Shown here one piece after another: positions 14,999 to 60,767 of a stretch of DNA of 64,000 nucleotides. Every line of letters starts with the position of its first letter. Position 1 is the stretch's first letter. The stretch lies in assembly GCA_036867785.1 (NCBI GenBank), contig CP145428.1, positions 310,001 to 374,000 of the forward strand, in the 5' to 3' direction. The stretch is from Plasmodiophora brassicae. Taxonomy: Eukaryota. Made by a program: the position numbers and the translations under genes. The notes beneath the pieces are model-generated. The model made no database searches and had not been told where the DNA came from. It worked only from the letters and a program-made list of their open reading frames with translations.

Positions 14999-16103
14999 CT
15001 TCCCGCACAGGCAGTGCTCGAGTCTGGCTCACGATCTCGACGACGGACAGCTCCGCAGACAGGACAGAATGTAGTGCGTGAGGCCGTGGCGGCAGCCACG
15101 CGGTGCGTGGACCGACTCGCCCGCGCGCGTGGTGACGTACGTTAGCCTATTTATAGCTACCAAGGAGATGCTGATGCACTTCGCACAATTGATACCACCG
15201 TACATGGCCCATGGCCCATGGGCGAATGCCATGCCGCCAGATGAGCTCAGGCTTCCGTTCGCCGTGCGCTTTGGGCAACGGGAATGAAAACAGATAGGTT
15301 GCATGATCTGCAACCACTGGACGCCACGTACAAGCCTCACCGTCCCGAGACCGTTGTCTTTCTACTGTCCTCAGACCCGAGGATCAAGATATAACGTCGC
15401 TCTCAGCGTGTTGAGCGTTTCCCGTATGCAGACAGACGGCTCAGGTGTCTTGGGCTGGCGTGCTGCCCTCGTCGTCTGCGGGTGCATGAACTTCCTTCTA
15501 TGCAGTCGACGTCCGCTTTAGCCATGGAGTACCTGTAGGCACCGGATTTCCAGCTTGCTAATGATCGGAGGTCCGTATTCTCGTCCAAAGACGCGGGCTT
15601 CAACCATTCCTACTGCACATAATTCCATGTGGCGTTCACAAATGTACACGCAGGGTTCCTGCAGCGGAAGTGTATCCTGTGGATGCCGAAATGTGACGCA
15701 CACTGCCCCCTGCAAAAGCTGAACCATCTGTTGCAGCAAACGATTGATCATGAAGGTGCCTGTTTGACAGATGTTAGAAGACGGACCGACGCGACATGAA
15801 GCCAGACGACAATTGTCTCCAGAACACGGAGTAGCCGACTGAGGTCGGTATCCGCGCGGACGGTTTACTGTTGTCATCCTGCCAAACCACTGCCGGTAAC
15901 GTCATCGTTCCCCGTACGCACGCCGCTCGTACGTGTTCCGGTCGTAGCAACAGATCTGTGCGCCGCGAGCCCGCGACGGCGCGACCCACCGGATCGGGGA
16001 CACTGCGCAAGTTCTTAAAATAGGCGATGCCGCGCGCAGGGGCAGTTTAGCCGCGACGTTCATTTCCAATCGATCGTTGGTTGGCGTCGGACACACCGCA
16101 GTC

Positions 16104-38627: not shown

Positions 38628-38947
38628 ATGTCGGATCGCATCTACTCCGCGGAACAGATCGTCGTCCCGCCCGAGCTGCCGCACCTGCTGAAGGCGTTCA
38701 CGAAGGAGGTCATCCGCCACCACCCCCCGGACATCGTCTCCTTCTCTCGCGAGTACGTCCCCGTAATGTGGTGCACCACCGTCCGGAAGGCCTAACCGCC
38801 GCGGCAGCTACTTCGCCGCCCTGTCCAAAGGCGAGGTGGACCAGTTCTTGAAAACCCTGGTCCGTCCCGTCGTTGTACCTCGCGTTCGCGTGTCACTGAC
38901 TCCGGCTGATCGTCCAGGCCGAGGCGGCCAAGTCGAACGACGCGTGA
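38628..38947 (+). CDS. Small RIIa dimerisation/docking-domain protein (ropporin/RSP11-like), 3 exons
   Basis: RIYSAEQIVVPPELPHLLKAFTKEVIRHHPPDIVSFSRD|YFAALSKG; TGA at 38945-38947. Confidence 0.8.
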
Positions 38948-39256
38948 TTGGCCCTGTCTGCCTCTATGTCGTTTCCCATACACACACCAGCAGCAGCACT
39001 CGTCGTCCGCTCTTTGAATTGGTTTTTCGTAGCGGCAGATCCTGGCCGAAACGTTTGCGCAGCTGTGGCGCGTTTCGGGGGTGCAGGTGCTTCCGCCTGA
39101 CGAGCGGCGGTGGGCGAGAAAAGCGGGACGCGTTCGCGAATACTTTTTTGGCGTGGAAAGCCGATCGATCGGGGACGGGGGCGGTGTGACCGTAGACCGT
39201 CTGGGTCCTTCCGCGGTACAGAGAGGGAACCAAGCCGGGCCGGGCGTGTGGGCACG

Positions 39257-40112
39257 ATGTCGTCGTCCGACGACGAGGTTAACGACGAAGTGTACGACGA
39301 GGAGGAGGATGACGATTTCAACCCCAACGATGACGGCGCCGAGGAGTACGAAGAGGACGAGGAGTCCGACGAGGAAGAAGACGGGGCCGTGGTCGGTGTC
39401 CCGGTCCGTGCACCATGCGGTTCGCTGATGGTACTTCCTGGTCACAGGTAGACAGTCGTGCCAGACGGGGTGCAGGTGACCTTCTCCACGCGTGGTCCTG
39501 CTCCTAACGCGGTTCTCATCGGCGATGTAGGTGGCGATGACGACGTCGGCGAGGAAGAAGGCGAAGACGAGGACGAAGACGACGATGAAGAAGGTTCGGC
39601 AGCTGTACCAAACGGGCGTGCATGCTCTTACGTTGTGAGGTGCAGGAAACGAGGACGATTACTATGTTGAGGAAGAGGAAGAGTACAACGAGGACGAGGA
39701 TTACGCGAAGATGGAAGCGCGTGTCAGCAGCCTCGTCGCCGATGGGCAAGTCGATGAAGCCGTTGATGCATTGAAGTCGTTAACGTCCAGCCTGGCGGCG
39801 AAGTTGCCGGACCTCAAGGACCTGGACGACGACGATGTCGGAATCCACAAATCGTACGTCATCGGAGCGATGTCGCTCTGGGTCGAGTTGCTACACGACG
39901 ATAAGACCAGGCAGCGGTTCTCGAAACCGGGAGCGACTGGCGCCAGCGTCATCGACGACCTGAACACCTGGTCGGACACGTTTCTCGGCGACGAATGCCT
40001 CGAACTGGACGTCACCGATGCCGCCGACGACGACAAGGCCGTCATCAAGGAGTTCATCGAGGTCCTGGAGGAATGCAAGGAGCAGCCAGCCAAGAAGAAA
40101 CAGAAAGCCTAG
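39257..40112 (+). CDS. Highly acidic, probably nuclear protein (D/E-rich N-terminus, C-terminal basic NLS-like tail), multi-exon
   Basis: Long D/E tracts in several exons, then a helical C-terminal region ending PAKKKQKA*. Confidence 0.7.
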
Positions 40113-42408: not shown

Positions 42409-43795
42409 ATGATGCTGGCCGATATCGTCCCTACGGCGGCCCAGTGGTCGATCGCGACCGGCGCCGTCCTGATCCTCGTGGCCCTTTGGATGATCCGCCG
42501 CACCAAACCGTCCTGGGGCCGATTCAGCGCCCCGACGACCGGCGCATCGCTGTTGTCCTCGAAGGACATGGTCATCGACCGCAATGGCGTCACCTCATCC
42601 GTTGACAAGTATGAGGACTTGTTCGAGGGCGCTCGCACCGGAAAAGTACGCTGATTTCCAAAGGCTTTGTCAAGGGCCTAAATGTGGCGGTGAGTGTAGA
42701 TTTCGAACGAGGACAGCATCGACTCGCGTAAAGCCGAGTACGACACGATGGTCCAGGCGTTCTGTGAGTGCCGCGTGCTCTCCCCTCTCACGTGTACGCT
42801 GACGTCTTGTCGCAGACAACCTGGTCACTGATTTCTGTATGCAAACCTCCTGTTTCGGATGGCCGTTGCTGACGCGTGCATGACAGATGAGTGGGGCTGG
42901 GGGCAGTCGTTCCACTTCGCGCCGCGTTTCGCAACGGAAACTTTCGAGGAGTCGATCCGCCGCAGCGAGCACTACATGGCGTATCGGCTGGGCCTGACGC
43001 CGACGACGAAGGCGGTCGACGTCGGGTGCGGGATCGGCGGCCCCATGCGTCACATGCATGAGTTCTGCGGCGCTGACATCACGGGTGTCACGATCTCGCA
43101 GTACCAGGTCAACATCGGCAACAAGTACAACAAGGCGTTCGGCCTCGCCGACAAGTGCCGTCTCGTCCAAGGCGATTTCCAGAAACTGGCCGAGCAGTTC
43201 CCAGCAAACACGTTCGACGCTGCCTTCGCCATTGAAAGCACTGTCCACTCGCCTGATCGCCGCGTACTTGACCGTTTATCAACCATCCTCATCCTTTGCT
43301 AACGTTGCTGTCAAGGTTACGTTCAAGAATGTGAACGCGATCCTCAAGCCGGGTGGCCTGTTCGCTCTGTACGAATGGGTCATGCTGGACGGGTTCGACA
43401 AGTCGGACACGAACCAGGTTCGCATCAAGGAGGGTATCGAGGCCGGCAATGGAATCCCGACGCTGACCGACATCAAGTACGTATTCGACTGCCTGAACGA
43501 GGCCGGGTTCGACATCGTCGAGAGCTTCGACGCCAATAGCAAGCAATTCGACAGCAACCAGATCCCGTGGTTCGACGGCCTGAACGGTAAGATGACGCTG
43601 AAAGGGTTCCGCATGACGAGTGTCGGTCGCTGGTGCACGAAGGTCTTCGTCACCGCCCTGGAGTCGCTCGGCATCGCCCCGAGCGGCTCGTCGCGTGTGG
43701 CCGCGTTCCTGAATTCGTCCGCCGATGACCTCATCGATGGTGGCAAGATGCAGATCTTCACGCCCCACTACTTCATCCTGGCTCGCAAGCGCTGA
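42409..43795 (+). CDS. SMT1: Sterol 24-C-methyltransferase, copy 1 (5 exons including a 21-bp micro-exon at 42816-42836)
   Basis: N-terminal TM; FYNLVTDFYEWGWGQSFHF; VDVGCGIGGP; AIESTVHSPD; ILKPGG.F..YEW; IEAGNGIP; IFTPHYF..ARK. Confidence 0.95.
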
Positions 43796-44435: not shown

Positions 44436-45827
44436 ATGATGTTGGCCGATATCGTCCCCTCTGTGGCCCACTGGTCGACGGCGACCGGCGCCGTCCTGAT
44501 CCTCGTGGCCCTCTGGATGATCCGCCGCACGAAACCGTCCTGGGGGCGGTTCGGCGCCTCGACGACCGGCGCATCGCTGTTGTCCTCGAAGGACATGGTC
44601 ATCGACAGCAAAGGCGTCACCTCATCCGTTGACAAGTACGAGGACTTGTTCGAGGGCGCTCGCACCGGAAAGGCAAGTCGATTCCCAAAGGCTTTGTCCT
44701 GCAAAGAGCCTAAGTGTGGCCTGACTGTAGATTTCGAACGAGGATAGCATTGACACGCGTAAAGCCGAGTACGACACGATGGTCCAAGCGTTCTGTGGGT
44801 TCCGCGTGCTCTCCCCTCTCACGTGTCCTGCTGACGTCTTGGCGCAGACAACCTGGTCACTGATTTCTGTATGCGCATCTCCTGTTTCGAATGGCCGTTG
44901 CTGACGCGTGCATGACAGATGAGTGGGGCTGGGGGCAGTCGTTCCACTTCGCGCCACGTTTCGCAACGGAAACGTTCGAGGAGTCAATCCGCCGCAGCGA
45001 GCACTACATGGCGTATCGGCTGGGCCTGACGCCGACGTCGAAGGCGGTCGACGTCGGGTGCGGGATCGGCGGCCCCATGCGGCACATGCATGAGTTCTGC
45101 GGCGCGGACATCACGGGTGTCACGATCTCCCAGTACCAGGTCAACATCGGTAACAAGTACAACAAGGCGCTTGGCCTCGCCGACAAGTGCCGTCTCGTCC
45201 AAGGCGACTTCCAGAAGCTGGCTGAGCAGTTCCCAGCAAACACGTTCGACGCGGCCTTCGCCATTGAAAGCACTGTCCACTCGCCTGATCGCCGCGTACT
45301 TGACCGTTTATCAACCATCCTCATCCTTTGCTAACGTTGCAGTCAAGGTTACATTCAAGAATGTGAACGCGATCCTCAAGCCGGGTGGCCTGTTCGCTCT
45401 GTACGAATGGGTCATGCTGGACGGGTTCGACAAGACGGATGCGAACCAGGTTCGCATCAAGGAGGGTATCGAGGCCGGCAATGGAATCCCGACGCTGACC
45501 GACATCAAGTACGTGTTCGACTGCCTGAACGAGGCCGGGTTCGACATCGTCGAGAGCTTCGACGCCAACAGCAAGCAATTCGCCAGCAACCAGGTCCCGT
45601 GGTTCGACGGCCTGAACGGTAAGATGACGTTGAAGGGGTTCCGCATGACGCGTGTCGGCCGCTGGTGCACGAAGGTCTTCGTCACTGCCCTGGAGTCGCT
45701 CGGCATTGCCCCGAGCGGCTCGTCGCGTGTGGCCGCGTTCCTGAACTCGACCGCCGACGACCTCGTCGACGGTGGCAAGATGCAGATCTTCACGCCTTCC
45801 TACTTCGTCCTGGCTCGCAAGCGCTGA
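44436..45827 (+). CDS. SMT1: Sterol 24-C-methyltransferase, copy 2 (micro-exon at 44848-44868; GC-AG first intron)
   Basis: Near-identical to copy 1 with all motifs; C-terminal IFTPSYF. Confidence 0.95.
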
Positions 45828-45969: not shown

Positions 45970-48358
45970 TTACATTGTCATGCCGAGGACGTCCATCTTG
46001 TGAGAGGCCGTCCCTGCCAGCTCTTCGAGGCTTGATATGCTGTCGGTGTCGGATACGGGCGGAGGTTGTTGCTCTTCGTGGTGCGCGCCGAAGTTGACGT
46101 TGTCGCAGAGCCAGAGCGCGAATCTGCCCTGGTCGGAGTCGCAGAACCCGGCGTAGTCGTTGTGGATGATTAGGCGCAGGACCTCGTCGTACGCCTCGGC
46201 GAACATGCGCACCGACGGCTTCTTGCTGCGTTCCTGGAGGCGGATGCGCTGGCTCATGGAGATGTTGATCTCGTGCGGGGCACCCTCGACGATGAACTCC
46301 TGCATGATCTTCGACGTTAGCGACTTGGTCATTTTCTGATCACGAGGCTTGGTCGAGGTCAGTAGGTTGACGGCCAGCAGGAACATGATGCCCTCCTGGC
46401 GGTAGCCTTGCACTTGCTGATCCTGGTGCGCCTGCATTCAGGGCCACTGTGCAACGCAGTGTTCCAACCGCATGCACCTTTAGGAGCTCGACCGCCACCG
46501 GATGTGCTAGAACTTTGTGCAGTGATTCGCTGGCATCTCCAACGCCTGCAGCGAAAGGTCACCCGCCGCTGTGGGAATTCCCGCGACACGTCTGACCTGC
46601 TGACGGCACCTTATCGTCTGCATACGACAGGCCCATCGACTTTAATGCACACGTCGCAAACGTGCTAGACGTTGTCTTCTTCCTGAAAGGCCACAGTCAG
46701 TGTTCCTTCACAAACAGCAGGTGCGGCTCCGACTTGTCTGATGAGTGTAAAGGACGCAGCACGTTGATCATGGTCAGCATTCGCTGTAGGACGTCGATCA
46801 GAGCCGATAGCACGAATCGCTGAGCGTGCGTGCCACACTTTAGCCGTGTCAAGGTCCCGTCGCGTCTCGACGAGTTCGACGATGGTCTGCGTCAGCTCGT
46901 TCTGGGTCTGTGCCACAACGCGATCCAGGTGGAGCTTGGCCGATTTCAGCTGTGATGCGCCAAACGCCTACATACACATCCCTGCCGTTCATACGACGCA
47001 TGCCACCCATCGACGTCCGCCTCCGTGCACCTCGAGCAGAAAGCAGGTGATGATACCGGCCCAGGCGACGATCAGCCCAACGCTGTCCTTATTCAGGGCA
47101 TCGGCGGCCGGCGCCGACGCCGCTGCATCGTACACGAACACGTGTTGCATTCCCCTGCGGGGGTTCAGGTTCAGTCGGTGGTTGCCCATTGTCCAGTGAA
47201 CCGACGTACGTGTAATGAGCGCCGCAGACGGCGATGCCCATGACGGCTGCTGACACGATCTGGAGCATGGGCATCTGGATGACGAACAGCAGGAGGAATG
47301 CGGCCGCGCTTGCGATGATCGCGATCAGCATGGACGCGGACACCACCCAGGGGTCGAACCTGACACGACGCAGTGTGAGTACTGACGACGACACCAGAAA
47401 TGGGGCCTGCATTATCCGCACTGGATGTGCCCCTGGAAGGTGACCGCCATAAGGCCCGTGTAATGCATGACGCCGACCCCGGTCCCGCTCATCAGTGCGG
47501 CGCCCAGCAGGTACCTGCGAGCGCTGTGAACGTGACATCAGTCACGTTCTACAACAGCACGTACCAGTCCGTTTCCTTGTACAACTTCTTCGGCAGCTCC
47601 ATGCGTTTCAGGTCCTTCATCGCCTAGAGAGCCAGTCGAAGTCAGGACGCCGTTCCAAGGCCCGCATACCTGCCCCTACATGCATCATGGTTCGGCGAAC
47701 GCCAGTGTACCTGGGCATGGCACCGCGTATGAGAGATGGCAATGTGAGTGGACGCGCGCCGGTGTACCCCGTTGTAAGCTGTTGAGCGGGGGAGGGTGCC
47801 GCCTCGCCCCGGGCGATGTGCCGATGGTGGTACCCGCGCATGACAATGAGGAGCGCAAGAACCTCGAGGACGATCGGTGCCACAACGCTGGTCGTGCCCG
47901 CTCGTCAACAAACAGACAGCAATGCGTAGTTGAAGGACCCACCTAATGACGACATGGCCGGGCGAGAATGTGAAGGGGAAGGGTTTACCGTCCGGTGAAA
48001 CCAGGGACAGCGCGGTCATTCCAATGAAGTGCACTGCCGGCATTGTCAACGGCTAGCAGACGTACCAGCGCAGGCGTTCCAATGCTTACTCGCGAAAATG
48101 CCGCACCCGCCCAGGGCGACCGCGGCCCAAACGACCCAGAACAACGGGTTCTTCCGTTTGTACAGCGAGATCTTGGCCTGCTCCACCATGAGGAACGCGG
48201 TGAACGACCCGAAGACCGACAGCGCATAGCTGAGCAGGATCAGCCAATAGTTCCATTGCTTGATGAGCGTCTGGCGGCCACGTTCGCGCGCAGTCAGTCA
48301 GCTGCTGGCCGCAACGATGATTCCATCGACGCACCTCGCCATTGACCTCCACCGCCAT
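45970..48358 (-). CDS. MHYT membrane sensor domain, coiled coil and C-terminal RGS domain (multi-exon)
   Basis: WNYWLILLSYALSVFGSFTAF; ALGGCGIF..HFIGMTAL; GTGVGVMHYTGLMA; FDPWVVSASMLIAIIASAAA; SAAVMGIAVCGAHYTGM; coiled coil QTQNELTQTIVELVETRRDLD; RGS EGIMFLLAV...IMQEFIVEGAPHEINIS...MFAEAYDEVLRLI..NDYAGFCDS. Confidence 0.82.
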
Positions 48359-48594
48359 GGCACCCGGATTCGACAGTGACGGGGCGACGACCCGAACAGG
48401 TCGTCGTCGTCGTTGCACTGACAAGTGGCAATCTGTCCGTCACAGCAGATAATATCGCCCCGTATGTTCTGGAAGGATGTGGGGAGGTCGGTATATATAT
48501 TAGGGCGGCGCTCCATATACAGGGGCGGCGGACTCCGTGGGCTGTGTTCACGGACACCGTGTCGACGACCCACACGCTCGACGTCGTTAGCACC

Positions 48595-48973
48595 ATGGTG
48601 AGTCAGCGGCCGGCCGCCTGTCCCGCCTGCGTCCGTCTGCTGACGCCGTATACCGCAGGTGTCGTACCCGAAGAAGAAGAACACGTTCTGCAAGAAATGC
48701 GGGAAGCACCAGGCGCATTCCGTGTCGCAGTACAAGGCCGGCAAGGCGTCCCTGTTCGCGCAGGGTAAGCGCCGATACGACCGCAAGCAGGCGGGTTTCG
48801 GTGGTCAGACCAAGCCGATCTTCCACAAGAAGGCCAAGACGACGAAGAAGATCGTCCTGAAGCTGAAGTGCAACGAGTGCAGTCTCGTCCAGCAGACCGT
48901 CCTCAAACGCACCAAGCACTTCGAGCTGATCACCGAATCCACCAAGCAGAAGAAGGGTGATGTTGTCTTCTAA
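48595..48973 (+). CDS. RPL44: 60S ribosomal protein eL42 (L44/L36a); intron immediately after the ATG (48598-48658)
   Basis: [68 protein letters not shown]. Confidence 0.97.
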
Positions 48974-49175: not shown

Positions 49176-50647
49176 TTACAGGTTCGACAATGGCAACGGA
49201 CGGGGAGGGGGACCTTTGGACTCGTTAGGCGTGCGTTGCAAAACCGTTTCAAGGTGCGGAACCTCACCTATGTACCGGGCCGATGGGCGAATCAGCTTCC
49301 CGTTCGCACGCTCTTCGAGAATGTGTGCCGCCCATCCCGAGGTGCGAGCAATCACGAACTATAGGTAGGTACACAGAGCGAGTCAAACAGAGCGCCCGAT
49401 TAGAGCACACCGCGATCGCATACGATTGGCGTGAAGAACTCGGTGGGGATTCCACATTGATGGTAAGCGGACGCAGCGAAGAAGTCGAGGTTGCAGAACA
49501 GTTTCTTCTCGTCCCACATCAACTGTACCAGCAGGGGTCAGCGCCGACGTCCCGTTCGCCGGTTGCGATACGTTCCACCTTCTCGATCCGTTTGGAGATG
49601 TCCACGAGGAGAGGTTTGCCCTCGGGCAGAGCCGCCATCCGCTCCGAGCATGACTTGATGATGTCCGATCGGGGGTCGCGCGTCTTGTACACGCGATGCC
49701 CGAATCCCATGATCTTGACCTTCTTCGCCAGCATGTCGCGAACGCCGGCTTCAGCGTCCGCCACCGAGCCGAATCGCTCAATCAGTCGCATCGCCTCTTC
49801 GTTGGCACCGCCTACGCCAACGGCCATTTAGCTACGTTGCACATGAGGAGGCGAAACATTGAACAACCATGTAGAGGTCCACGAAGCGTGCCGATAGCGG
49901 CACAGATCGCTGAGTAGATGTCGCTCTGCGTCGACGTCGTCACTCTGCAAGCGAAGCTGGATGCAGCGAACCCATGCTCCTACGACACAGCGGCCATTCG
50001 GTTTACGGCAACGTAAGCGGATTACGAAGGCGTACAGCGTATAGGATCAAGGAGACGTCGACAGTACGGACGGCCTCTGGATGCGGGTCGCGACCGTGCA
50101 GAAGACGAAGGAAATGATGGGCGATGCGTTCGCTGGGTCCTTGCCCGGACGTGTCGATACGACGACCGTTCGCGTGGAACTGATGCCAGTAGCACAGAAC
50201 GGAACCGAAGATCGCGATCAGGTAGTCGAACACGTCTTCCGCAGGAGCACCTGGGAAGGCCCTTCAGCGAAGAATCAAACGTGCTGGGACAGGTGGGTCA
50301 CCTTTCGTCTCAGGGCGGATTGTGCCGAGGAACGAGCAGGCGGTTCGCAGGACGTCCATCGGATGCGCCGAGCGGGGCGTTTGTTCAAGGACGATCATGA
50401 GCGGTTTCGGCAATGGGCGGAATCCGTCCAGCCGGGCCGTGTAGGCGGCCAGCTGTGCCTTGGACGGCAACTGGCCGTAGATCAGGAGGTAGGCGACCTG
50501 CTCGAAACAGCAGTGCGCCGCCAGGTCCTCGACATTGTACCCGCGGTAGTGCAGACCGTGGCCGCCGGCGCCGACCGTCGCCGTCGCCGTTTCCCCGGCG
50601 ATGACGCCCACCAGCCCCTTCGAATACGACGGTGCCGTCTTCGACAT
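49176..50647 (-). CDS. prpC: Bacterial-type (2-methyl)citrate synthase, PrpC-like (multi-exon)
   Basis: [83 protein letters not shown]; ends LSNL*. Confidence 0.85.
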
Positions 50648-50836
50648 AGTGAAGGTCCGTGACGCGTGACGACTGACGAGGTGTTCGCACCCCAAAATTC
50701 CAACACGCAGCTGCCAAGCTCGGATTTTCCGTAACGGCTCGCGACGCGCAGAACGTCATCCAAGCTGCAGTTCGTTGAATGTTGCGCGACTGCAATGAAC
50801 ACGGCGTCCGCGTACGGTCAGACAGGCAACAAGTTG

Positions 50837-50909
50837 GTCTTCTTAGCTCAGTTGGGAGAGCGTACGACTGAAGATCGTAAGGTCTCGCGTTCGATCCGCG
50901 AAGAGGACA
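50837..50909 (+). tRNA. tRNA-Phe (anticodon GAA), intronless
   Basis: Acceptor stem GTCTTCT/AGAGGAC; D-arm TAGCTCAGTTGGGAGAGC; anticodon stem TACGA-CTGAAGA-TCGTA; T-loop GTTCGATCC; downstream oligo-T Pol III terminator at ~50915-50920. Confidence 0.95.
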
Positions 50910-51198
50910 TTGCTTTTTTTGGTCGGTATGTCTCGGTCGACTGGCATAAGCGCTTCGGTTCAACGAACCTGGGGTCGAGGCTGCTGGGCAGATTCCGTAA
51001 CGTGTGCTCGTTGGGGAAGAACCTCGCCTAATGATAACAGGCTGCCTTCAGTTTCGCGTACGAATGCATCACGGGCGTTCGTCAGCTTTGTCGCAAAGAG
51101 GGCCGCTTATCACGTCGGGCGCGCACTCGTGACACCGATCCGACGACCTCGGCGCTGGCATTGCAGCGGGGCGCGCGCGTCACCTGGATAATCCGATC

Positions 51199-51545: not shown

Positions 51546-53115
51546 CTACAGCAACTGGTGGACGGCCAGCTCGTTCTGGCAGGCAACGGCCACGACGTCG
51601 TCCGTCGGGTGCCACGCGACGTGCAGGCACTTCCGCTGGAAGTCGAACTCGTGCGGGTGCACCGCTGGAACCGCCTAGACGGGACGGAGGGTCGAGTCAG
51701 TTCCCCGCAGTGGAACAACATCGATCGGCGAACGATCGTTACGCTTCGTTTTCGGACGGCGTTCTCGTGGAACCCGCGAGTTGTGAACTGGTGCACGCGC
51801 GATCCTGTACGAACGAGCACGGATTAGGCGCGAGGGGTTTGACAGGGACGACGACGACGCGCACTACAGACTCGTCGGCTTCGGCGGTCGTATCCGATGG
51901 GTCAGGTGGGCGTCCCAGTCGTAGATGATGGCCTCGCTGTTGTACGATCCGGTGATGAAGCGGTTGCCGGCGACGGCGACCTCGAACTTGTCAAAGATGC
52001 AATCGTTCTCATAGACGTCGCTGAGCCTCGGCTTGATATAGTCGTGAGTGGCGACGACGTGCAGAGGCCGTACCGGGACGCGCACGTCCCAGATCTTGCT
52101 CGTCAGGTAATCGCGACTCACGATGAACCGGCCGTCGCGCGTGAACGTCGCGTCCGAGATCGAGCTGACGATCTCGGAGAAGAAACTCCTGTCCTGCAGG
52201 TCGGCTTCCGACTCGAACACGACGTCCGGCGACGTTAGCAGCGCCTTGCACCGCATGTCCATGAGCCGGATGACGCCCCGGCTCGAGCTGAAGATTAGCT
52301 GGTTGCACGACACCGGATGGAACCTGATTACAGGCGCGTCTCAGTATGGGGAGGCCGGGTCGGCATGGCGAAGCGCGATTACTGTGCCGAGGTGACGACC
52401 TCGGTCAGCTCCTCCATGTTCTCCGGCTTGATGTCGATGATGTTGAAGCTGACGTTGGGGACCGACAGGTTCCACATGTTGATCCGCAGGTCGTCCGACG
52501 AGATGAACGTCTCGTGGTCCGAGTTCAACGAGATCCTAGGGCCAGGAGAGTCAGACGCCGGCCGCACCGCGATGTGGAGCGGGAGCCGTCCTACGAGTTG
52601 ATGTGGTACGCATGCGCGTCGGTGAACGCGTTCTTCAACGTGCAGGCGGGGACCGTGTCGACATGTGACAGGACGGGTATGCGCAGGACGCCATCGCGCC
52701 CGTCGCGGTTCAGGTTCGTGATCGAGTGGACAAAGTGCTGGTACAGCTTCCAGAGCTTGATGGTTTTATCGTTCGTCGTCAGCAGCATCTGCGAGCCGTG
52801 CGTGTTCGGGCACCACCGGATCATGTTGATCTTCTCCTCGATGTCCTGCGACTTGAGATAGTCGATGTCGTGCTTGTGGCTCTGGAAGTGCGTGTAGTAC
52901 TCGTACTGGTGCACATGGTCGAACTCCTTCGACGATTTCTCGGCGTGGATCCAGACGCGTCCGGATTTGTCGCCGGCGGCCAGGTACGCGCCGCTGGGCG
53001 AGAACGCCACCGCCGTGATCGTGTCCGCGTCGATCGTGTCCTCGTCGGCGCATTCGTCGCCGACGTTCTGCACGTGCTTCCATACGGGTCGATGATCGGG
53101 CGACGGCGCGGCCAT
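51546..53115 (-). CDS. PPP2R2: Protein phosphatase 2A regulatory subunit B55 (WD40), multi-exon
   Basis: [110 protein letters not shown]. Confidence 0.95.
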
Positions 53116-53351
53116 GTGCGAATCGGCCTGGAGGCACGCGCCCTCCTTCACTGGCATAAATATCCGTCGACGAAGACGCGGGGCGCCGCTCGCTATCGCA
53201 TCACGTGGCACCGTCGACGGTGCCACCTGCCGGACCCGGGCAATCAGGGCGCCACGCAACGATCAGCAACAGTACCGACCCGATCGGACGCGCACGACCC
53301 TGCGCGCCTGTCTGCGAGCTGCACTCGCTGGCCCACCCTCTCCGACTCCGG

Positions 53352-56300
53352 TCACCGCCTGTTCAGTGGCGTACACTGCGCGACTGTGCGAGCTGCACGC
53401 TGGCCCTCCCCCGTCCGACTCCGCCCTGTTTGTTCAATGGCGTACAGGGCGTGCAGCTTCGACTGGGCTCGACTGCACCGCGCGACTCCGCGGGCCACGC
53501 ACTGCGTACGCAGAGCAGCGAGCCAGAGTTGCGCAGGCACGCAGACGCGGCACCGCCCGGCGGACTGCGTGGAGGGGAACGCCCGGAACGGCCTCATGGG
53601 CCCCCGGTGCGCTTTATCGACGTCGATTCATCGGTCCGGGCCGAACGCGTCCAGCAGGTCGCGCCGGATGCGACGCCGGCGCTGCGTCGGCGTCCGGAAC
53701 AGCAGCAGCTGCGACAGGTCCCTGGCCAGGCGCCAGTCGACCGCCCCGCCGCCCACCTGGCCGTTGACGTGGTCCAACAGTGCGCGACCCGCCTCCGCGT
53801 ACGACTCCCGTTCTGCACGCGCCGCACCGCTCTCGCCCATCAGCAGTCTGGCCGCTCACGTGGCCCGTCGCAAACCGTACCGAATGTCGGGGCGGTGACC
53901 GGCGTCCAGGTTCGTGCGCATCGGGACAGGAACGCCGGCGCCGGGTGGCTCGTGGCGGGCGTCTTCGCGTCCGGGTCCCCGGCCCGCACCGGGCCAAGCA
54001 GGTCGACAATGCGCTGGTCGTGCGCCTTACGACGTGCTCGACCGGCTTCGTCGAGGCGGGACAGCGCGCGCGGGCACATGCTCGACATGATCGCATGGTA
54101 GTCGGCGTATCGGATGCAGAGCACGCGCGCGGACGTGATCGACGTTGCGGACAGATCCGCCCTGGTCGGGCGCGCGTCAGGCACGCCGATCGGCGAAGCG
54201 AAACGGGCGCGACGTCCGGCACCTGCGTGGGCTGTCGCTCGAGGGCTGGAACGCGCAGAACGTCTGATGCGGGCCGACTTGCGCCAGGTCCACGTCCACC
54301 GTGTCGTCGTTGGACGGGACGCCAGGAATGCAGAGGTCGGGCGACGATAACGACACCTAAGCGCGCCCGCGATCAGACGCGGAAGGGCCTGCACACAGCA
54401 GCAGCACCGACCGATCTCGTGAGCCGCACGTCGCCGGAGACGACCACGTGGATGGCGCTGGCCGGTTGCCCCTGCATGCAAATGTACTCCTCCGGCATGT
54501 AATGTCTGATCTCGCACGCCGACCGCGCCAGCTTCATCAGTTCTGCATCACGAGCAACGGTCAGGCGTGCTGGTGCCGCTGCCGCCGCCGCCACCACCAA
54601 ACCTTTGGTTCGGCAGCACTGAAACTCGTAGACGGTTTTCAGGAACGACGCGATGTAGGCGGGGCCGCTGGTGTCCGCCTTGCGCAGCGACCTGATGGGG
54701 GTTGTTTAGAGGCGCTGGCCCGCCCGACTGGGGCAGCAGTCGACGCGTGCCTGAGGAAGTACTTGCGCTTGATGGTGAGGAACATGGTGTTCTCGCGCGT
54801 CACGACCGTGGCGGCGCGCGCCTTGCCGTGCAGGAGCGCCAACTCGCCGAATGTGGACCCGGGGCCCACACTCGACACGCAGGGGCCGTAGATCTCGGAG
54901 ATCAACTCGTTGTGCATGACTGCCCCCATTGCGGTAAACGCGAGTGAGCGCCGATCGATGGCGCACGAATTCGCTCGCGCCTACAGATGTTGTCATCGAC
55001 GGACAGCGCGTCCGCCCCCGACGGCGACGATTCGTCGTCGCCGTCGTCGTCTGAATCCGCCGAGGTGGACTTGCCACCCGCGCCGCCGGCACGTTGCAAT
55101 CTGCGAATCTGCAACGCTTGGATCGCCGATGGCTTCGGCTGCGGTGGGCCCGCGCTGTCCCGGACGTGGATCGAGACGGACCCGCGCACGATCAGGTAGA
55201 AGTTGTCGCCCTCGTCGCCCTGCTTGAAGACGGTCGTGTACGACGGCATGCTGCCCTTCTCGATCAGGCGCATCATCTTCAGGCGCTGGTCCGGCACCAT
55301 GTCGGCGAAGAACTTCACGAAGTGCAGCGCGTTCTGCAGTGCTGTGGCGCACGCGACACGTCAGACGGTGAACATCATCATCAGCCGACTGGCCCAGCGC
55401 CCCGTCGCGCAAGGTGCGCGACTGCAGCGCCAATAGTGCGCGGGCCATGTCGGAGCACACCACGTGAGTGTGCCCAAACCCGCGCGTCCAGTACCCTGCA
55501 AGTCGGCATTGGAGCGCTCCAGCCTCGGCAGCTTCATGATACGGTCCAGGCTGGCGATGTTGCGGAGCAGGTCGGCGGCGCTCGCCAGGAGTTCCCGCAT
55601 CTGCCCGACGCGCCAGTCAGACGTCGTCGTCGCGCACGTTGCTGGGGGGCGCCCCATACGGAATGCCGATCGACGACGACCACGTCGCACTTCGTGCGGG
55701 TCACCACGGTGGACTGGAACCGACCCCCGTTGATCATCTCCATGCCGAGCAGGTTCCCCGGCGATAGCTCGCAGACGAGGTCGCCGATGCTCCCGGACGC
55801 GTCGCTGACGCTGTCCCGGCGCTCGTGGACGGCCACCGTGCCGCTGGCCAGGACGAACGCCTTGTCGGCCGGCGCCCCCTGCTGCATCATGACGGACAGT
55901 GACGGCAACTGTTGAACGTCATCAGCTCGGCGTCGACGTTGAACGCGGGAACGAGTACCGACGTGCTGCAGGTGCACTTCGGAGGCGATCCGCATGGCGA
56001 GGCGCTTGTCGAGCTGGTCGAACAGGGCCGGGAACGCGTCGATGATGACATTGCACGCGTTATCGTTGCGCTTGCGCGGCGGGACCTTCAGCGCCTGCTG
56101 CACCGCGTCCGTCAGGATCGGCAGGGCGCCGTTTCGACGAAGTTCCCGCATGATCGTCGATATGCGCAGACACGCTGACACGATTGTCAGCGGTGCCCCA
56201 CCGACCACCACCACGCGGGCATGCACCGACCTAGCGCGGTCTGCTGCCGGGCGATCATTCGCTGATCCGGACGTGGCCCCGTCAACGACAGGTCGTCGGT

Positions 56301-58588: not shown

Positions 58589-59329
58589 TCATCGGAAACC
58601 TTTCCGTTGTCGTTGGCGCTGTCGTGCCCGAACAGCCGCCGCGCGCCTGGTCTCAGAATCCACCGACCCAGCGCTGGACCCGGACTCCTCGTCGTCGTCG
58701 CTCTGGGCGAGCGCGTTATCCTCGCTGTCGGACTCGAGATGACGATCGTATTGCGGACGGGACCGTTTCGTTCGACGAAACTGGGGCCCGGCACCGGTCG
58801 ACGCGGTCCCCATGACGCTTCGCCTTGCAGCAAATTCAGCTTCCACCCGCCTCCTCATCTGTTCCTGCCGTTTGGAGTCTTCGGCGGCGCGTAACTGCGC
58901 GCGACGACGGCTACCATCTTCGATAGCGGATGACGTGCATTCAGCAGGCTTCCACCCGTCGGGTTTCCGCTGACGCAGCACGGTCTTCACCTGATCCATC
59001 AGCGTCGCGCGCTTGTCCGCATTCAGAAGCTCATCACGCGCGTCCTGAAGAATCCGGTACGCACGGACGCGCCGTTTCTGATCCGCGTCGTCAGCGTACC
59101 GGTCCGGGTGCACCGACACAACCCGGCGTCGGAACGCGTTCACGATGACGCGCTCGCACGCCGGCCCGTCACCCACATCGACCACCCATCGCAGGTGGTT
59201 CAGCTCGTCCAGCGTCGGATGCGCCAGTCCCAGCACCGCGAACGCGTCGTGCCGCGCCGCAATGACCTGCTCCGCCGCCGACCGTCCCACGGCGTCGCCA
59301 ACGTCCTCCTCCTCCTCTTCGTCGGACAT
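58589..59329 (-). CDS. DnaJ-domain protein (DNAJC8-like)
   Basis: DAFAVLGL...FRRRVVSVHPDRY...AYRILQDARDELL J-domain with HPD; basic/acidic C-terminus. Confidence 0.85.
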   Translation of the reverse strand: MSDEEEEEDVGDAVGRSAAEQVIAARHDAFAVLGLAHPTLDELNHLRWVVDVGDGPACERVIVNAFRRRVVSVHPDRYADDADQKRRVRAYRILQDARDELLNADKRATLMDQVKTVLRQRKPDGWKPAECTSSAIEDGSRRRAQLRAAEDSKRQEQMRRRVEAEFAARRSVMGTASTGAGPQFRRTKRSRPQYDRHLESDSEDNALAQSDDDEESGSSAGSVDSETRRAAAVRARQRQRQRKGFR

Positions 59330-59693
59330 TTTACCGAATCAGCAAAAAAGCGTGGAACGATGCAACTGCACGCGCCGCAAACTGCGTGCGTGCCACGTTA
59401 CATCTATTCATAGTACCGTACGTCGAGCGCCAAAACAGCAATTAAGGACACTGCTCGTTCTGTTTTCATTACGTCAATATTGGCACGGTTCGACAGTGTG
59501 TGCGCCGGCGAACGTCGCTTCGGGCGATGGTCTGATGGTGCCACGGGCGAGCGAACATCGCTCCGTGTTGAGGCCGTGGACACCGGCACAACGCCTAAAA
59601 ATAGACGTGTTAATTACCTGTGCGGAAATTGCGCGACGTGCAGTCGCAAAACCACAGACCGCCTCCGCGAGACCGCGATCAGACTGCCCAGAC

Positions 59694-60767
59694 ATGGGAA
59701 GAATGCCGCGTTGTGTCGGCATCGTTATCGTTTTAATCCTGGCCGCGCGATGCTGGGGAGAACCGCCCGGGGTACCGCGCGCGCTCGTGAAATGCGGCGA
59801 GCTTGCGATCAGGGTATCCGCGGGTCAGACCGGGAAGGCGTGGCTGCTGCGGTCGTCGGCCTGGAACTTCCTGGCCGAGCAGTACTGGAAGTTGTTCTAT
59901 GCCAGCAGCCCGTCCTACGCGCGTATCTACGGGTACCTGGACACAAACCGCTTCGTGTGCAACGCAAAGTGTACCGTGATGCCGTACGCAGGGACCGCTG
60001 CTGGGTCACTCGGCGTGCAGACCGTCAGAGTCTCCATCCAGTCCCTGTCGTTACTCATCTCCGTTATAACGGGACCAGAGAAATGGGAGCAGGCTTTAAG
60101 CGAAGCCTGGAAATCATATGAGTCTGATCCGAGGCAGTTCACAAAGAGACTGCTCTCAAGCGTCACCGCGTCGGCAAGTAAGGCCGTTTCCGTAACAGCC
60201 AGCGCAGCGCTTCGTGAAACGGCCGTCTTCTTGCTGGGCTCGATGGTTGTTCCTCAACTCAATGGCGCGCTCTTGATACATGGGTTCTACCCGTGGTTGT
60301 ATTCCCAGGTCCTGACACCATTACTGAGCCCAACGGCGTTCCCGTTCAACGTGGTGCTGGAGTCGTGCGCGCTGAATGCTGTCGATTTCATGTGCGAGTC
60401 AGTGCCAAGAACGGTCGTTGACTGGGTAGTCGGTCGTTTACGACAACCGTCGACACAACCTGAAGGCGCCTGTCCTTCATCGGACCCATTGCTAGCGATG
60501 ACTGAGGTCGACGACGACACCGTTGTCGTTTCCCGGATCGCAGATGAAGTGCCTCAAAGCGCGACTGAAGCGGACAACGAATTCGTCCCTGTGGACGACG
60601 CGATTAGACAGGAACCAAGCGGGGCGGAAGGGGTCGACAAGAACAACAACGACAAGCCAAAGGAAAACAAGCTTCATGTTCGACTGCAAATGTTGGTCAG
60701 CAGGACCATCAAGACCATTGTGTCCAAGATGACGGCATGCTTCAAATTCGGGAATACTTTCCGATAA
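59694..60767 (+). CDS. Secreted single-exon hypothetical protein, effector candidate
   Basis: SP MGRMPRCVGIVIVLILAARCWG; 357-aa ORF; no recognised domain. Confidence 0.65.
   Translation: MGRMPRCVGIVIVLILAARCWGEPPGVPRALVKCGELAIRVSAGQTGKAWLLRSSAWNFLAEQYWKLFYASSPSYARIYGYLDTNRFVCNAKCTVMPYAGTAAGSLGVQTVRVSIQSLSLLISVITGPEKWEQALSEAWKSYESDPRQFTKRLLSSVTASASKAVSVTASAALRETAVFLLGSMVVPQLNGALLIHGFYPWLYSQVLTPLLSPTAFPFNVVLESCALNAVDFMCESVPRTVVDWVVGRLRQPSTQPEGACPSSDPLLAMTEVDDDTVVVSRIADEVPQSATEADNEFVPVDDAIRQEPSGAEGVDKNNNDKPKENKLHVRLQMLVSRTIKTIVSKMTACFKFGNTFR

What the first reader, a model, noticed from the sequence alone, without database searches (positions are those of the whole stretch)
45970..48358. MHYT-RGS fusion: a bacterial-type gas/metal sensor wired to a G-protein switch-off domain
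Seen: an intron-containing gene encoding a multipass membrane domain with three MHYT-type repeats (xHFIGM, MHYTG, AHYTGM), a coiled coil and a full RGS domain. Established: MHYT domains are mostly bacterial sensors, proposed to bind copper through Met/His and to sense O2, CO or NO, normally coupled to GGDEF/EAL or histidine-kinase outputs; RGS domains are GAPs for G-alpha, and plant 7TM-RGS1 is a receptor-RGS fusion. Inference: this may be a non-GPCR receptor in which gas or redox sensing controls G-alpha deactivation, for example for host-root or hypoxia sensing by zoospores or resting spores. I cannot confirm whether this architecture has been described.
Basis: partly seen in the sequence, partly recalled or inferred. 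Interest (0 to 1): 0.85.

Follow-up and report, generated by a model that had tools for sequence, protein, structure and literature searches.

The report
MHYT seven-helix sensor fused to RGS
The clubroot parasite Plasmodiophora brassicae makes a single spliced transcript for a seven-helix membrane protein of the copper/gas-sensor (MHYT) type joined to a G-protein switch-off (RGS) domain, a receptor design that also occurs in the amoeba Paulinella and that I did not find described in the papers I searched.

Summary
Window 48358-45970 (minus strand) is a real Plasmodiophora brassicae gene. It is already in NCBI as a 571-aa "MHYT domain-containing protein" (P0001). Pfam finds MHYT (E 1.8e-26) and a full RGS domain (E 2.1e-12) in it.

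Single spliced contigs from three runs of three studies span from the MHYT exons to the RGS exon (exon 1 included only in X2). They also show a 57-nt intron that the NCBI model retains, so the protein is 552 aa from 14 exons.

The model has seven membrane helices. Helix 7 runs on into a coiled coil that is predicted to pair in parallel, followed by a canonical RGS fold.

The same architecture occurs in Paulinella chromatophora and in seven environmental protein clusters. Two of those carry an extra PAS domain. The named neighbours of the MHYT part are eukaryotes, not bacteria.

My best reading is a dimeric receptor-GAP in which an MHYT sensor controls G-alpha deactivation. The ligand, GAP activity and G-alpha partner are untested. 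It is a new variant of the known 7TM-RGS receptor kind. None of the literature searches found the combination described.

The parts
45970..48358 (-). Whole coding region of the MHYT-coiled coil-RGS gene. The transcript-supported form has 14 exons and 13 GT-AG introns of 50-64 nt, giving 552 aa. The NCBI model P0001 has 13 exons and 571 aa.
48335..48358 (-). Exon 1 (start codon at 48358)
   Evidence: Joint 48270/48335 in the X2 contig, which reaches 48425 in the 5' UTR
48090..48270 (-). Exon 2: membrane helices 1 and 2. It ends with the first base of the Met codon of motif 1.
47943..48033 (-). Exon 3: rest of motif 1 (MHFIGM, 48090-48017 across intron 2) and the outer loop
47768..47887 (-). Exon 4: membrane helix 3 and the start of the basic cytoplasmic loop
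47711..47767 (-). Intron of 57 nt, in frame, retained in the NCBI model (19 aa of loop 3). It is spliced out in all three spliced contigs.
   Evidence: Joint 47704->47762 (cut +6) in X1, X2 and X8
47680..47710 (-). Exon 5 (31 nt)
47565..47623 (-). Exon 6 (basic cytoplasmic loop)
47422..47514 (-). Exon 7: membrane helix 4 with motif 2 (MHYTG, 47468-47454)
   Evidence: Pfam MHYT 2.4e-5 on this frame alone
47210..47359 (-). Exon 8: membrane helices 5 and 6 and the start of motif 3
47031..47154 (-). Exon 9: end of motif 3 (AHYTGM, 47220-47148 across intron 8), the outer loop and membrane helix 7
46757..47090 (-). Helix 7 plus coiled coil as one continuous helix (P0001 residues 291-362; spans exons 9-11). 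Predicted to form a parallel in-register dimer over residues 299-360.
46839..46967 (-). Exon 10 (coiled coil)
46734..46783 (-). Exon 11
46597..46682 (-). Exon 12 (low-confidence linker)
46478..46545 (-). Exon 13: first helix of the RGS domain
45970..46422 (-). Exon 14: rest of the RGS domain, the C-terminal tail and the stop codon
46132..46525 (-). RGS domain (Pfam match, P0001 residues 406-518; spans exons 13-14). The conserved Asn of the 'EINIS' stretch is at 46266-46264.

Best explanation
This is an expressed P. brassicae gene for a dimeric, non-GPCR receptor-GAP.

The N-terminal half is a seven-helix MHYT domain with its N-terminus outside the cell. Its three His-containing motifs sit at the outer ends of helices 2, 4 and 6. 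Helix 7 continues without a break into a cytoplasmic coiled coil that pairs two chains in parallel. A flexible linker then leads to a canonical RGS domain.

I infer that a change in the MHYT sensor is passed down the helix-7/coiled-coil rod, as in bacterial MHYT-coupled enzymes. That would alter how the two RGS domains reach G-alpha-GTP at the membrane, so that an outside signal sets the rate at which G-alpha is switched off, as proposed for plant and protist 7TM-RGS proteins. The signal is most likely a small diatomic gas or redox cue read through copper.

Shown here: gene structure, a single transcript, the domains, the folds, conservation of the architecture, and purifying selection.

Inferred: topology, the dimer, signal transfer, GAP activity and the ligand.
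For: Gene and transcript:
- One spliced contig in each of X1, X2 and X8 (three studies) spans from the MHYT exons to the RGS exon. They carry 12, 13 and 12 joints (X1 and X8 start inside exon 2 and lack exon 1), all CT..AC on the + strand.
- The resulting reading frame is intact at 552 aa.

Domains:
- Pfam gives MHYT 1.8e-26 and RGS 2.1e-12.

MHYT residues:
- His70, His205 and His267 are kept. These columns are His in 144, 148 and 147 of 148 aligned proteins.

Topology:
- Loops 1 and 3 carry 4 and 10 Lys+Arg.
- The N-terminus and loops 2, 4 and 6 carry 1, 1, 0 and 1.
- This puts the motifs outside and the RGS domain inside.

Structure:
- AlphaFold2 gives seven helices, pLDDT mostly above 90 with the 148-row alignment.
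- One helix runs 291-362, and the RGS part reaches pLDDT 78-89 with the 9-row family alignment.
- Foldseek finds 46 PDB chains at E <= 1e-3. All listed rows are classical RGS proteins, for example RGS4 in 1agr_E at TM 0.84 and RGS8 bound to Gi-alpha-3 in 2ode.

Dimer (residues 285-530, two copies):
- Score 0.39 against a best control of 0.00 from 3 controls.
- The runs agree in at least 65% of contacts, and partner pLDDT is at least 73.
- The contacts are in register (342-342, 345-345, 349-349).
- On microbes the mark was reached by 21 of 30 proteins solved as pairs of one chain and by 0 of 23 solved as single chains.
- On eukaryotes it was reached by 17 of 29 pairs and 0 of 30 single chains, but by only 1 of the 7 pairs with no older solved relative.

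RGS residues:
- The Asn aligned with the 'VNID/INLD' Asn of RGS8 and RGS7 is present. It is kept in 8 of 9 MHYT-RGS proteins.

Conservation of the fusion:
- P0054 (Paulinella chromatophora transcript), P0005, P0030, P0033, P0073 and P0149 are MHYT-RGS. P0038 and P0126 are MHYT-PAS-RGS.
- One clade for the 8 MHYT-RGS rows in the tree (P0073 was too short to enter) is not rejected (p-AU 0.443).

Selection:
- Against a diverged strain's DNA contig, 40 of 44 differences were listed. Of these, 22 fall in 730 nt of intron and 18 in 1659 nt of exon.
- Of the exonic differences, 15 are synonymous and 3 are conservative replacements.

Precedent:
- The MHYT domain of CoxC senses CO, with O2 as antagonist, and needs Cu2+ (PMC11347149, sections 18-19 read).
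- RGS domains of 7TM-RGS proteins act as GAPs on G-alpha in Naegleria (PMC9283941 passages).
- Eukaryotic MHYT domains are also fused to cyclase and histidine-kinase outputs, as expected of a modular sensor.
Against: - No biochemical data exist for this protein or for any eukaryotic MHYT protein that I saw.
- Two consensus Met residues are replaced. Position 209 is Leu where 137 of 148 have Met, and position 266 is Ala where 126 of 148 have Met.
- In the alignments to RGS8 and RGS7, the 'SEEN' stretch reads 'RQEG' and 'DSYPRF' reads 'NDYAGF'. By my recalled RGS4 numbering, S85, N88, D163 and R167 are changed, and only E87 and N128 are kept.
- De Mendoza et al. note that some RGS domains have lost GAP activity.
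- I could not check that P. brassicae has a G-alpha, because no genome is held.
- The ligand of even the best-studied bacterial MHYT enzyme, NbdA, is now called 'so far unknown', and a nbdA deletion strain still disperses on NO (preprint 10.64898/2026.03.20.713172, abstract and passages).
- The dimer score may reflect generic coiled-coil pairing, and the tool warns that a pass on eukaryotes may come from memory.
- The linker 361-400 is of low confidence, so rigid signal transfer to the RGS domain is not evident.
Confidence: 0.55

Rival explanations
1. The RGS domain is not a GAP. It acts as a G-alpha-binding or scaffolding module, as in RGS-like domains of kinases and RhoGEFs. The protein would then be a membrane sensor that recruits or is regulated by G-alpha, rather than one that switches it off.
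For: By recalled RGS4 numbering, four of six G-alpha contact positions differ in the alignment to RGS8 and RGS7. The Asn of 'SEEN' is kept in only 3 of 9 family members. PMC3971589 section 11 states that some RGS domains have lost GAP activity.
Against: The Asn aligned with the catalytically important Asn of classical RGS proteins is kept here and in 8 of 9 family members. All listed Foldseek matches are classical RGS proteins, with no kinase-, axin- or RhoGEF-type RGS-like domains among the rows shown. The Asp-to-Asn change is, as I recall, also found in the active GAP RGS2.
Confidence: 0.15
2. The MHYT part has lost sensing and serves only as a membrane anchor and dimerisation platform for a constitutively active RGS domain.
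For: Two of six consensus Met residues are replaced. There is no evidence of any ligand. The long loop 3 and the linker are of low confidence.
Against: All three His and all three aromatic residues of the motifs are kept. Pfam MHYT scores 92.3 bits. Substitutions against a diverged strain are mostly synonymous across the membrane part as well. An unbroken helix-7/coiled-coil rod is typical of signal-transmitting sensors. The same sensor is kept with RGS across 20-28% identical relatives.
Confidence: 0.15
3. The sensor is real, but its signal is not a diatomic gas. It could be copper or another metal itself, membrane redox state, or a host-derived small molecule.
For: Only one MHYT protein (CoxC) has a demonstrated ligand. 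NbdA's signal is called unknown. Motif Met residues differ here.
Against: The His/Met/aromatic arrangement shared with CoxC is largely kept. Nothing here points to another ligand.
Confidence: 0.2
4. The fusion is an annotation or assembly artefact, and the MHYT and RGS parts are two neighbouring genes.
For: None was found.
Against: Single spliced contigs in three runs of three studies bridge all linker introns. The reading frame is open throughout. The same order of domains is found in a Paulinella transcript called a complete ORF by its source, and in seven environmental clusters.
Confidence: 0.02

Closest known systems
7TM-RGS receptor-GAPs (Arabidopsis AtRGS1; Trichomonas; the 28 Naegleria fowleri 7TM RGS proteins)
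   Same: Seven membrane helices followed by a cytoplasmic C-terminal RGS domain. These are proposed to let an outside cue control G-alpha-GTP hydrolysis, and they are common in bikonts (PMC3971589 section 11; PMC9283941 passages).
   Different: Here the seven-helix part is an MHYT domain (Pfam 1.8e-26) with no significant Foldseek similarity to GPCRs or rhodopsins (best E 0.097). A dimeric coiled coil is inserted between helix 7 and the RGS domain. I did not compare it directly with the AtRGS1 sequence.
Bacterial MHYT sensors: CoxC (MHYT-LytTR), NbdA and MucR (MHYT-GGDEF-EAL), MHYT-PAS histidine kinases
   Same: The same Pfam family, with three His motifs at the outer ends of alternate helices, a seventh helix and a cytoplasmic output domain. 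CoxC shows copper-dependent CO sensing.
   Different: The output here is a eukaryotic RGS domain. The CoxC paper lists HK, GGDEF, EAL, PAS and DNA-binding partners only. The closest named MHYT relatives are eukaryotic. Two motif Met residues are replaced.
Paulinella chromatophora protein P0054 (EukProt transcript, 730 aa) and environmental proteins P0005, P0030, P0033, P0073, P0149, P0038 and P0126
   Same: The same MHYT - coiled coil - RGS order. Paulinella, like Plasmodiophora, is a rhizarian by my own knowledge of taxonomy.
   Different: Only 20-28% identical to P0001. There are long low-complexity inserts. P0038 and P0126 add a PAS domain between the sensor and RGS. Four of these proteins lack the first MHYT repeat, possibly through truncated gene calls.
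Other eukaryotic MHYT proteins: Heterostelium album MHYT-cyclase (P0058), Rhizophlyctis rosea MHYT-histidine kinase (P0090), Taphrina MHYT histidine kinase, and output-less forms in Thecamonas, Lagenidium, Syncephalis and Aspergillus
   Same: The same sensor domain on the same side of the MHYT tree. This shows that eukaryotes reuse the sensor with different outputs. Taphrina and Aspergillus are known from papers.
   Different: They have different or no output domains, and none is linked to G proteins.
Naegleria gruberi bacterial-type sensor (CHASE4/HAMP/PAS)-RGS receptors noted earlier in this scan
   Same: A sensor module of bacterial type wired to an RGS output in a protist.
   Different: They have a two-pass receptor with an extracellular sensor, not a seven-helix intramembrane MHYT domain. 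These are unchecked AI notes, and I did not test them.

Membership tests
MHYT domain (Pfam PF03707) | Profile match above the curated cut-off | tested here: met
   92.3 bits against a cut-off of 21, E 1.8e-26, two stretches. Three exon frames also hit on their own.
MHYT domain (Pfam PF03707) | Three repeats, each with a Met-His-aromatic motif at the end of a membrane helix | tested here: met
   MHFIGM at 69-74, MHYTG at 204-208 and AHYTGM at 266-271. All three His are kept. Met209 is Leu and Met266 is Ala.
MHYT domain (Pfam PF03707) | Six helices plus a seventh, with the motifs facing the outer side of the membrane | tested here: met
   Seven helices in both AlphaFold2 models. The Lys+Arg count of the loops places the motifs outside. 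This is a prediction, not a measurement.
MHYT domain (Pfam PF03707) | Copper binding and gas response | not testable with these tools
   Shown only for bacterial CoxC.
RGS domain (Pfam PF00615) | Profile match above the curated cut-off over the whole domain | tested here: met
   47.9 bits against a cut-off of 23.9, E 2.1e-12, profile positions 1-112 of 117. PDB sequence hits to RGS7, 8, 2, 4 and 10 at E 1e-4 to 1e-2.
RGS domain (Pfam PF00615) | All-helical RGS fold | tested here: met
   On the predicted model, 46 PDB chains match at E <= 1e-3. TM scores normalised to the target are 0.69-0.88 for isolated RGS domains, for example 0.84 for 1agr_E and 0.88 for 3c7k_B.
RGS domain (Pfam PF00615) | G-alpha contact residues of active GAPs | tested here: inconclusive
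   The Asn of 'EINIS' aligns with the Asn of RGS8 'EVNID', and the Glu of 'SEEN' is kept. The other four positions differ. The mapping to RGS4 numbers is recalled, not from a call.
RGS domain (Pfam PF00615) | GTPase acceleration on a G-alpha | not testable with these tools
   No G-alpha sequence of this organism was available.
7TM-RGS receptor-GAP (AtRGS1 type) | Seven membrane helices N-terminal to a cytoplasmic RGS domain | tested here: met
7TM-RGS receptor-GAP (AtRGS1 type) | Common descent of the seven-helix part with AtRGS1 or GPCR-like 7TM domains | tested here: not met
   The seven-helix part belongs to the MHYT family. Foldseek found no GPCR or rhodopsin match at E <= 1e-3. There was no direct comparison with AtRGS1. 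It therefore works like a 7TM-RGS but is not a member of that lineage.
7TM-RGS receptor-GAP (AtRGS1 type) | A cognate G-alpha, self-activating in plants and some protists | not tested
   No genome is held. Only a general statement that rhizarians have most GPCR-pathway parts (PMC3971589 passages).

The most novel reading that the evidence does not exclude
MHYT-RGS proteins are a conserved eukaryotic class of copper-dependent gas receptors (O2, NO or CO) that act directly as G-alpha GAPs. They would be the first receptor-RGS proteins with a predictable ligand class. In the clubroot parasite they would couple oxygen or NO levels in soil and in the gall to G-protein signalling, with sister forms (MHYT-cyclase, MHYT-kinase) feeding the same cue into cAMP/cGMP and phosphorelay pathways in other protists and fungi.
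Probability: 0.25. Interest if true: 0.85.

Novelty: new variant of a known kind. Interest (0 to 1): 0.6.

Why it matters
Receptor-RGS fusions are thought to be the main way many non-animal eukaryotes control G proteins. [quoted passage not shown] An RGS wired to a sensor domain whose one characterised member reads CO and O2 through copper gives a concrete, testable ligand hypothesis.

It also shows that the MHYT sensor, treated in the papers I saw as bacterial with 'several fungi', is a modular eukaryotic sensor. In eukaryotes it is joined to RGS, nucleotide cyclase and histidine-kinase outputs.

For clubroot, it names a candidate environmental sensor of an uncultivable crop parasite. I recall, but did not read here, reports that clubroot galls show hypoxia responses.

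Tried and rejected
- My first hand-built 13-exon model chose three wrong acceptor sites and missed one intron. It was replaced.
- A whole-genome search of the window's own assembly was not possible. There is therefore no census of G-alpha, RGS or MHYT paralogs in this organism.
- The look-up of sequencing runs listed no RNA holder on record. The three runs are labelled 'RNA?' by guess, and I rely only on what their contigs bridge.
- The word-index homology searches found only the protein itself plus bacterial MHYT kinases and short MHYT proteins. One search also found one RGS-only protein, P0165.
- The ESM Atlas gave no usable hit.
- Scans with the MHYT-PAS-RGS protein P0038 gave 80 loci in prokaryote genomes and 80 in JGI metagenomes. 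All matches end by query residue 442, before the RGS part (472-578). P0038's own 70.6-kb contig was not found, so the organisms behind the environmental members stay unknown. This is weak evidence that bacteria lack the fusion, because most search patterns were specific to P0038.
The 9-row family alignment fixed this.
- A recent transfer from bacteria was considered. It is not supported by the named neighbours, but the tree is poorly resolved: 62 of 144 inner branches are open, and P0001 lies in no starred clade.
- A single origin of the fusion is neither shown nor rejected. The free tree needs 5 changes, starred branches force only 1, and p-AU is 0.443. P0073 was left out of the tree because it is too short in this region.
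- Papers I could not read: Anantharaman et al. 2011 (PMC3396428), Bradford et al. 2013 (PMC4871593) and Bi et al. 2019 on P. brassicae GPCR signalling.
- Supplementary figures S6 and S7 of PMC3971589 list RGS architectures and RGS proteins with membrane helices.
Full report
**What is there**

The finding's limits, 45970-48358, are exactly the stop and start of a minus-strand gene. I first built a 13-exon GT-AG model by hand.

A search with the last exon, restricted to longer proteins, returned one protein, P0001. It is 571 aa and named by NCBI 'MHYT domain-containing protein [Plasmodiophora brassicae]', with PF00615 and PF03707 precomputed. Its exon structure reproduces from the window letter for letter. 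So the organism is the clubroot parasite, and the gene is already annotated.

**Domains**

Pfam on single exon frames gives RGS 1.2e-11 and MHYT 2.4e-5, 3e-4 and 0.0094. On P0001 it gives:
- MHYT 1.8e-26 (92.3 bits, cut-off 21);
- RGS 2.1e-12 (47.9 bits, cut-off 23.9, profile positions 1-112 of 117).

**One transcript**

No run is on record as RNA. I laid four runs, and three of them (X1, X2, X8) come from three different studies and each hold a single contig without the introns.
- X2's contig (1736 nt) runs from 48425 to 45960 with 13 joints.
- X1 and X8 start inside exon 2 and have 12 joints.
- All joints are CT..AC on the + strand, which is GT..AG for this gene.

These contigs agree with the NCBI model at the three acceptor sites where my first model was wrong. 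All three also remove one more intron of 57 nt (47767-47711) that NCBI retains. The transcript-supported gene therefore has 14 exons, 13 introns of 50-64 nt, and a 552-aa product lacking 19 residues of a cytoplasmic loop.

The fourth run, X15, holds an unspliced DNA contig of a diverged strain with 44 differences, of which 40 were listed.
- 22 lie in the 730 nt of intron and 18 in the 1659 nt of exon.
- Of the 18 exonic differences, 15 are synonymous and 3 are conservative replacements (I/V, Y/F, T/A).

This is the pattern of a gene under purifying selection.

**Anatomy**

AlphaFold2 was run twice.
- With 148 MHYT relatives it gives seven membrane helices, with pLDDT mostly above 90.
- With the 9-member MHYT-RGS family alignment it gives an RGS domain at pLDDT 78-89.
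- In both models helix 7 continues as one helix to about residue 346-362.

Loops 1 and 3 hold 4 and 10 Lys+Arg. The N-terminus and loops 2, 4 and 6 hold 1, 1, 0 and 1. The N-terminus and the three motifs therefore face outward and the RGS domain faces the cytoplasm.

Foldseek results differ for the two halves.
- For the membrane part it found no solved structure at E <= 1e-3; the best was a rhodopsin at 0.097.
- For the RGS part it found 46 chains at E <= 1e-3. All rows shown are classical RGS proteins, several of them solved in complex with G-alpha: RGS4 1agr_E at TM 0.84, RGS8 2ode, RGS16 3c7k_B at 0.88.

Two copies of residues 285-530 were predicted to pair through an in-register parallel coiled coil over residues 299-360.
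- The score was 0.39, against a best control of 0.00 from 3 controls.
- The runs agree in at least 65% of contacts, and partner pLDDT is at least 73.
- On microbes the mark was reached by 21 of 30 proteins solved as pairs of one chain and by 0 of 23 single chains.
- On eukaryotes it was reached by 17 of 29 and 0 of 30, but by only 1 of 7 with no older solved relative.

This supports dimerisation but does not show it.

**Key residues**

Across 148 aligned MHYT proteins, the His columns at 70, 205 and 267 are His in 144, 148 and 147. P0001 keeps all three, and also the aromatic residues. It has Leu for Met at 209 (Met in 137 of 148) and Ala for Met at 266 (Met in 126 of 148).

In the printed alignments to RGS8 and RGS7:
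- the Asn of 'EINIS' aligns with the Asn of 'EVNID/AINLD';
- 'SEEN' reads 'RQEG';
- 'DSYPRF' reads 'NDYAGF'.

By RGS4 numbering, which I recall and did not obtain from a call, N128 and E87 are kept, while S85, N88, D163 and R167 are changed. The Asn is kept in 8 of 9 MHYT-RGS proteins, the Glu in 7 of 9, and the second Asn in 3 of 9. GAP activity is therefore plausible but not assured.

**Relatives**

A full HMMER scan of 1.84 billion representatives gave 4067 hits at E <= 1e-3, and I examined the best 150. Three of these are exon-sized fragments of this same gene. I found the fusion among the rest in two ways.
- An RGS profile built from the first members, together with Pfam, shows eight further clusters with MHYT and RGS in the same order: P0005, P0030, P0033, P0054, P0073 and P0149, plus P0038 and P0126 with a PAS domain in between.
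- A Pfam census of the best 101 of the 148 rows (the tool's residue limit) found MHYT in 101, RGS in 7, HisKA in 11, GGDEF in 3, EAL in 2 and nucleotide cyclase in 2.

P0054 is a Paulinella chromatophora transcript in EukProt. The others come from unnamed metagenome or read-archive assemblies.

Named neighbours of the MHYT part are all eukaryotes:
- Thecamonas trahens and Lagenidium giganteum;
- Rhizophlyctis rosea (MHYT-histidine kinase), Syncephalis pseudoplumigaleata and Heterostelium album (MHYT-cyclase).

On a quick maximum-likelihood tree of 147 rows they share an 86-row side with the RGS-bearing proteins. The backbone is weak and P0001 lies in no well-supported clade. One clade of the eight RGS-bearing rows is not rejected (p-AU 0.443).

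Scans of prokaryote genomes and JGI metagenomes with P0038 found only MHYT or PAS matches ending before the RGS part.

**How it probably works**

Three things argue for a sensor-to-output design like that of bacterial MHYT enzymes, but ending in a G-alpha GAP:
- an outward-facing His/Met/aromatic site;
- an unbroken helix from the membrane into a dimeric coiled coil;
- a conserved classical RGS domain on the inside.

In function, though not in descent, this makes it a 7TM-RGS receptor-GAP.

The one MHYT domain with a demonstrated ligand, CoxC, responds to CO, is antagonised by O2 and needs Cu2+ (PMC11347149: abstract, sections 18 and 19, and passages). In contrast, the signal of NbdA is now called unknown (preprint abstract and passages). 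The steps from sensor to RGS, the ligand and the GAP activity are all inference.

**Comparison with what is known, and novelty**

7TM-RGS proteins are well described in plants, Trichomonas, Naegleria and 'many bikonts', and RGS genes have radiated in rhizarians (PMC3971589 section 11 and passages; PMC9283941 passages). MHYT proteins are known in some fungi, for example the Taphrina MHYT histidine kinase (PMC4007546 passages) and an Aspergillus fumigatus list entry.

My searches for the combination gave:
- 'MHYT' with 'RGS': 2 papers, neither describing the fusion (one is the Aspergillus list above);
- 'MHYT' with 'heterotrimeric': 0 papers;
- 'MHYT' as a whole word: 93 papers, 40 listed, with no listed title on a protist or a G protein;
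- 'Plasmodiophora brassicae' with 'regulator of G protein', with GPCR terms, and with 'heterotrimeric G': nothing on the parasite's own genes.

Two key comparative papers and one P. brassicae paper are not held. The supplementary architecture tables of PMC3971589 are closed, so the fusion may have been tabulated there.

Earlier notes of this scan record bacterial-type sensor-RGS receptors in Naegleria and a viral receptor-RGS, but no MHYT-RGS, and nothing on this genome.

I rate it a new variant of a known kind. It is already catalogued by domain databases but, as far as I could see, undescribed.

Noticed in passing
window 47711-47767 (-): The NCBI gene model (P0001) retains a 57-nt in-frame intron that all three spliced contigs remove. 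The deposited protein is probably 19 residues too long in cytoplasmic loop 3.
   Followed up: yes
window 42998-43795 (+) and 45030-45827 (+): Two neighbouring frames both match the sterol methyltransferase C-terminal domain (E 1.1e-23 and 4e-25). This looks like a tandem pair of sterol methyltransferase genes. The second is convergent with the MHYT-RGS gene, with only about 140 nt between the two stop codons. The X1 contig runs on beyond 45900.
   Followed up: partly
window 48590-48973 (+): A ribosomal protein L44 gene (Pfam 7.9e-33) lies head to head with the MHYT-RGS gene. The region between the two start codons is only about 240 nt, and X2's contig shows a 5' UTR of at least 67 nt within it.
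   Followed up: partly
proteins P0038 and P0126 (environmental, 609 and 597 aa): A three-part variant, MHYT-PAS-RGS. P0038 lies on a 70.6-kb contig that I could not fetch. It is the same relay module (PAS) that bacterial MHYT kinases use, here placed in front of an RGS output.
   Followed up: partly
proteins P0010, P0058, P0132, P0138, P0125 and P0090: MHYT fused to class III nucleotide cyclase in P0058 (Heterostelium album), P0010 (an unnamed EukProt entry) and three environmental proteins of unknown origin (P0125, P0132, P0138), and to a histidine kinase in P0090 (the chytrid Rhizophlyctis rosea). These forms were not mentioned in the MHYT papers I read.
   Followed up: partly
window 46184-48450, contig of run X15: A diverged strain or close relative carries the same gene with 44 base differences and a 2-nt insertion in intron 9. 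Among the 40 listed differences, exonic changes are 15 synonymous to 3 conservative.
   Followed up: yes
window 29645-31615 (-): A long open frame matches the Major Facilitator Superfamily (E 4.1e-21). Five other long frames tested had no Pfam match at E <= 1e-4: 12599-15028 (-), 38792-39658 (-), 50385-51047 (-), 52669-53898 (+) and 55055-55915 (+). So did 59082-60767 (+).
   Followed up: no
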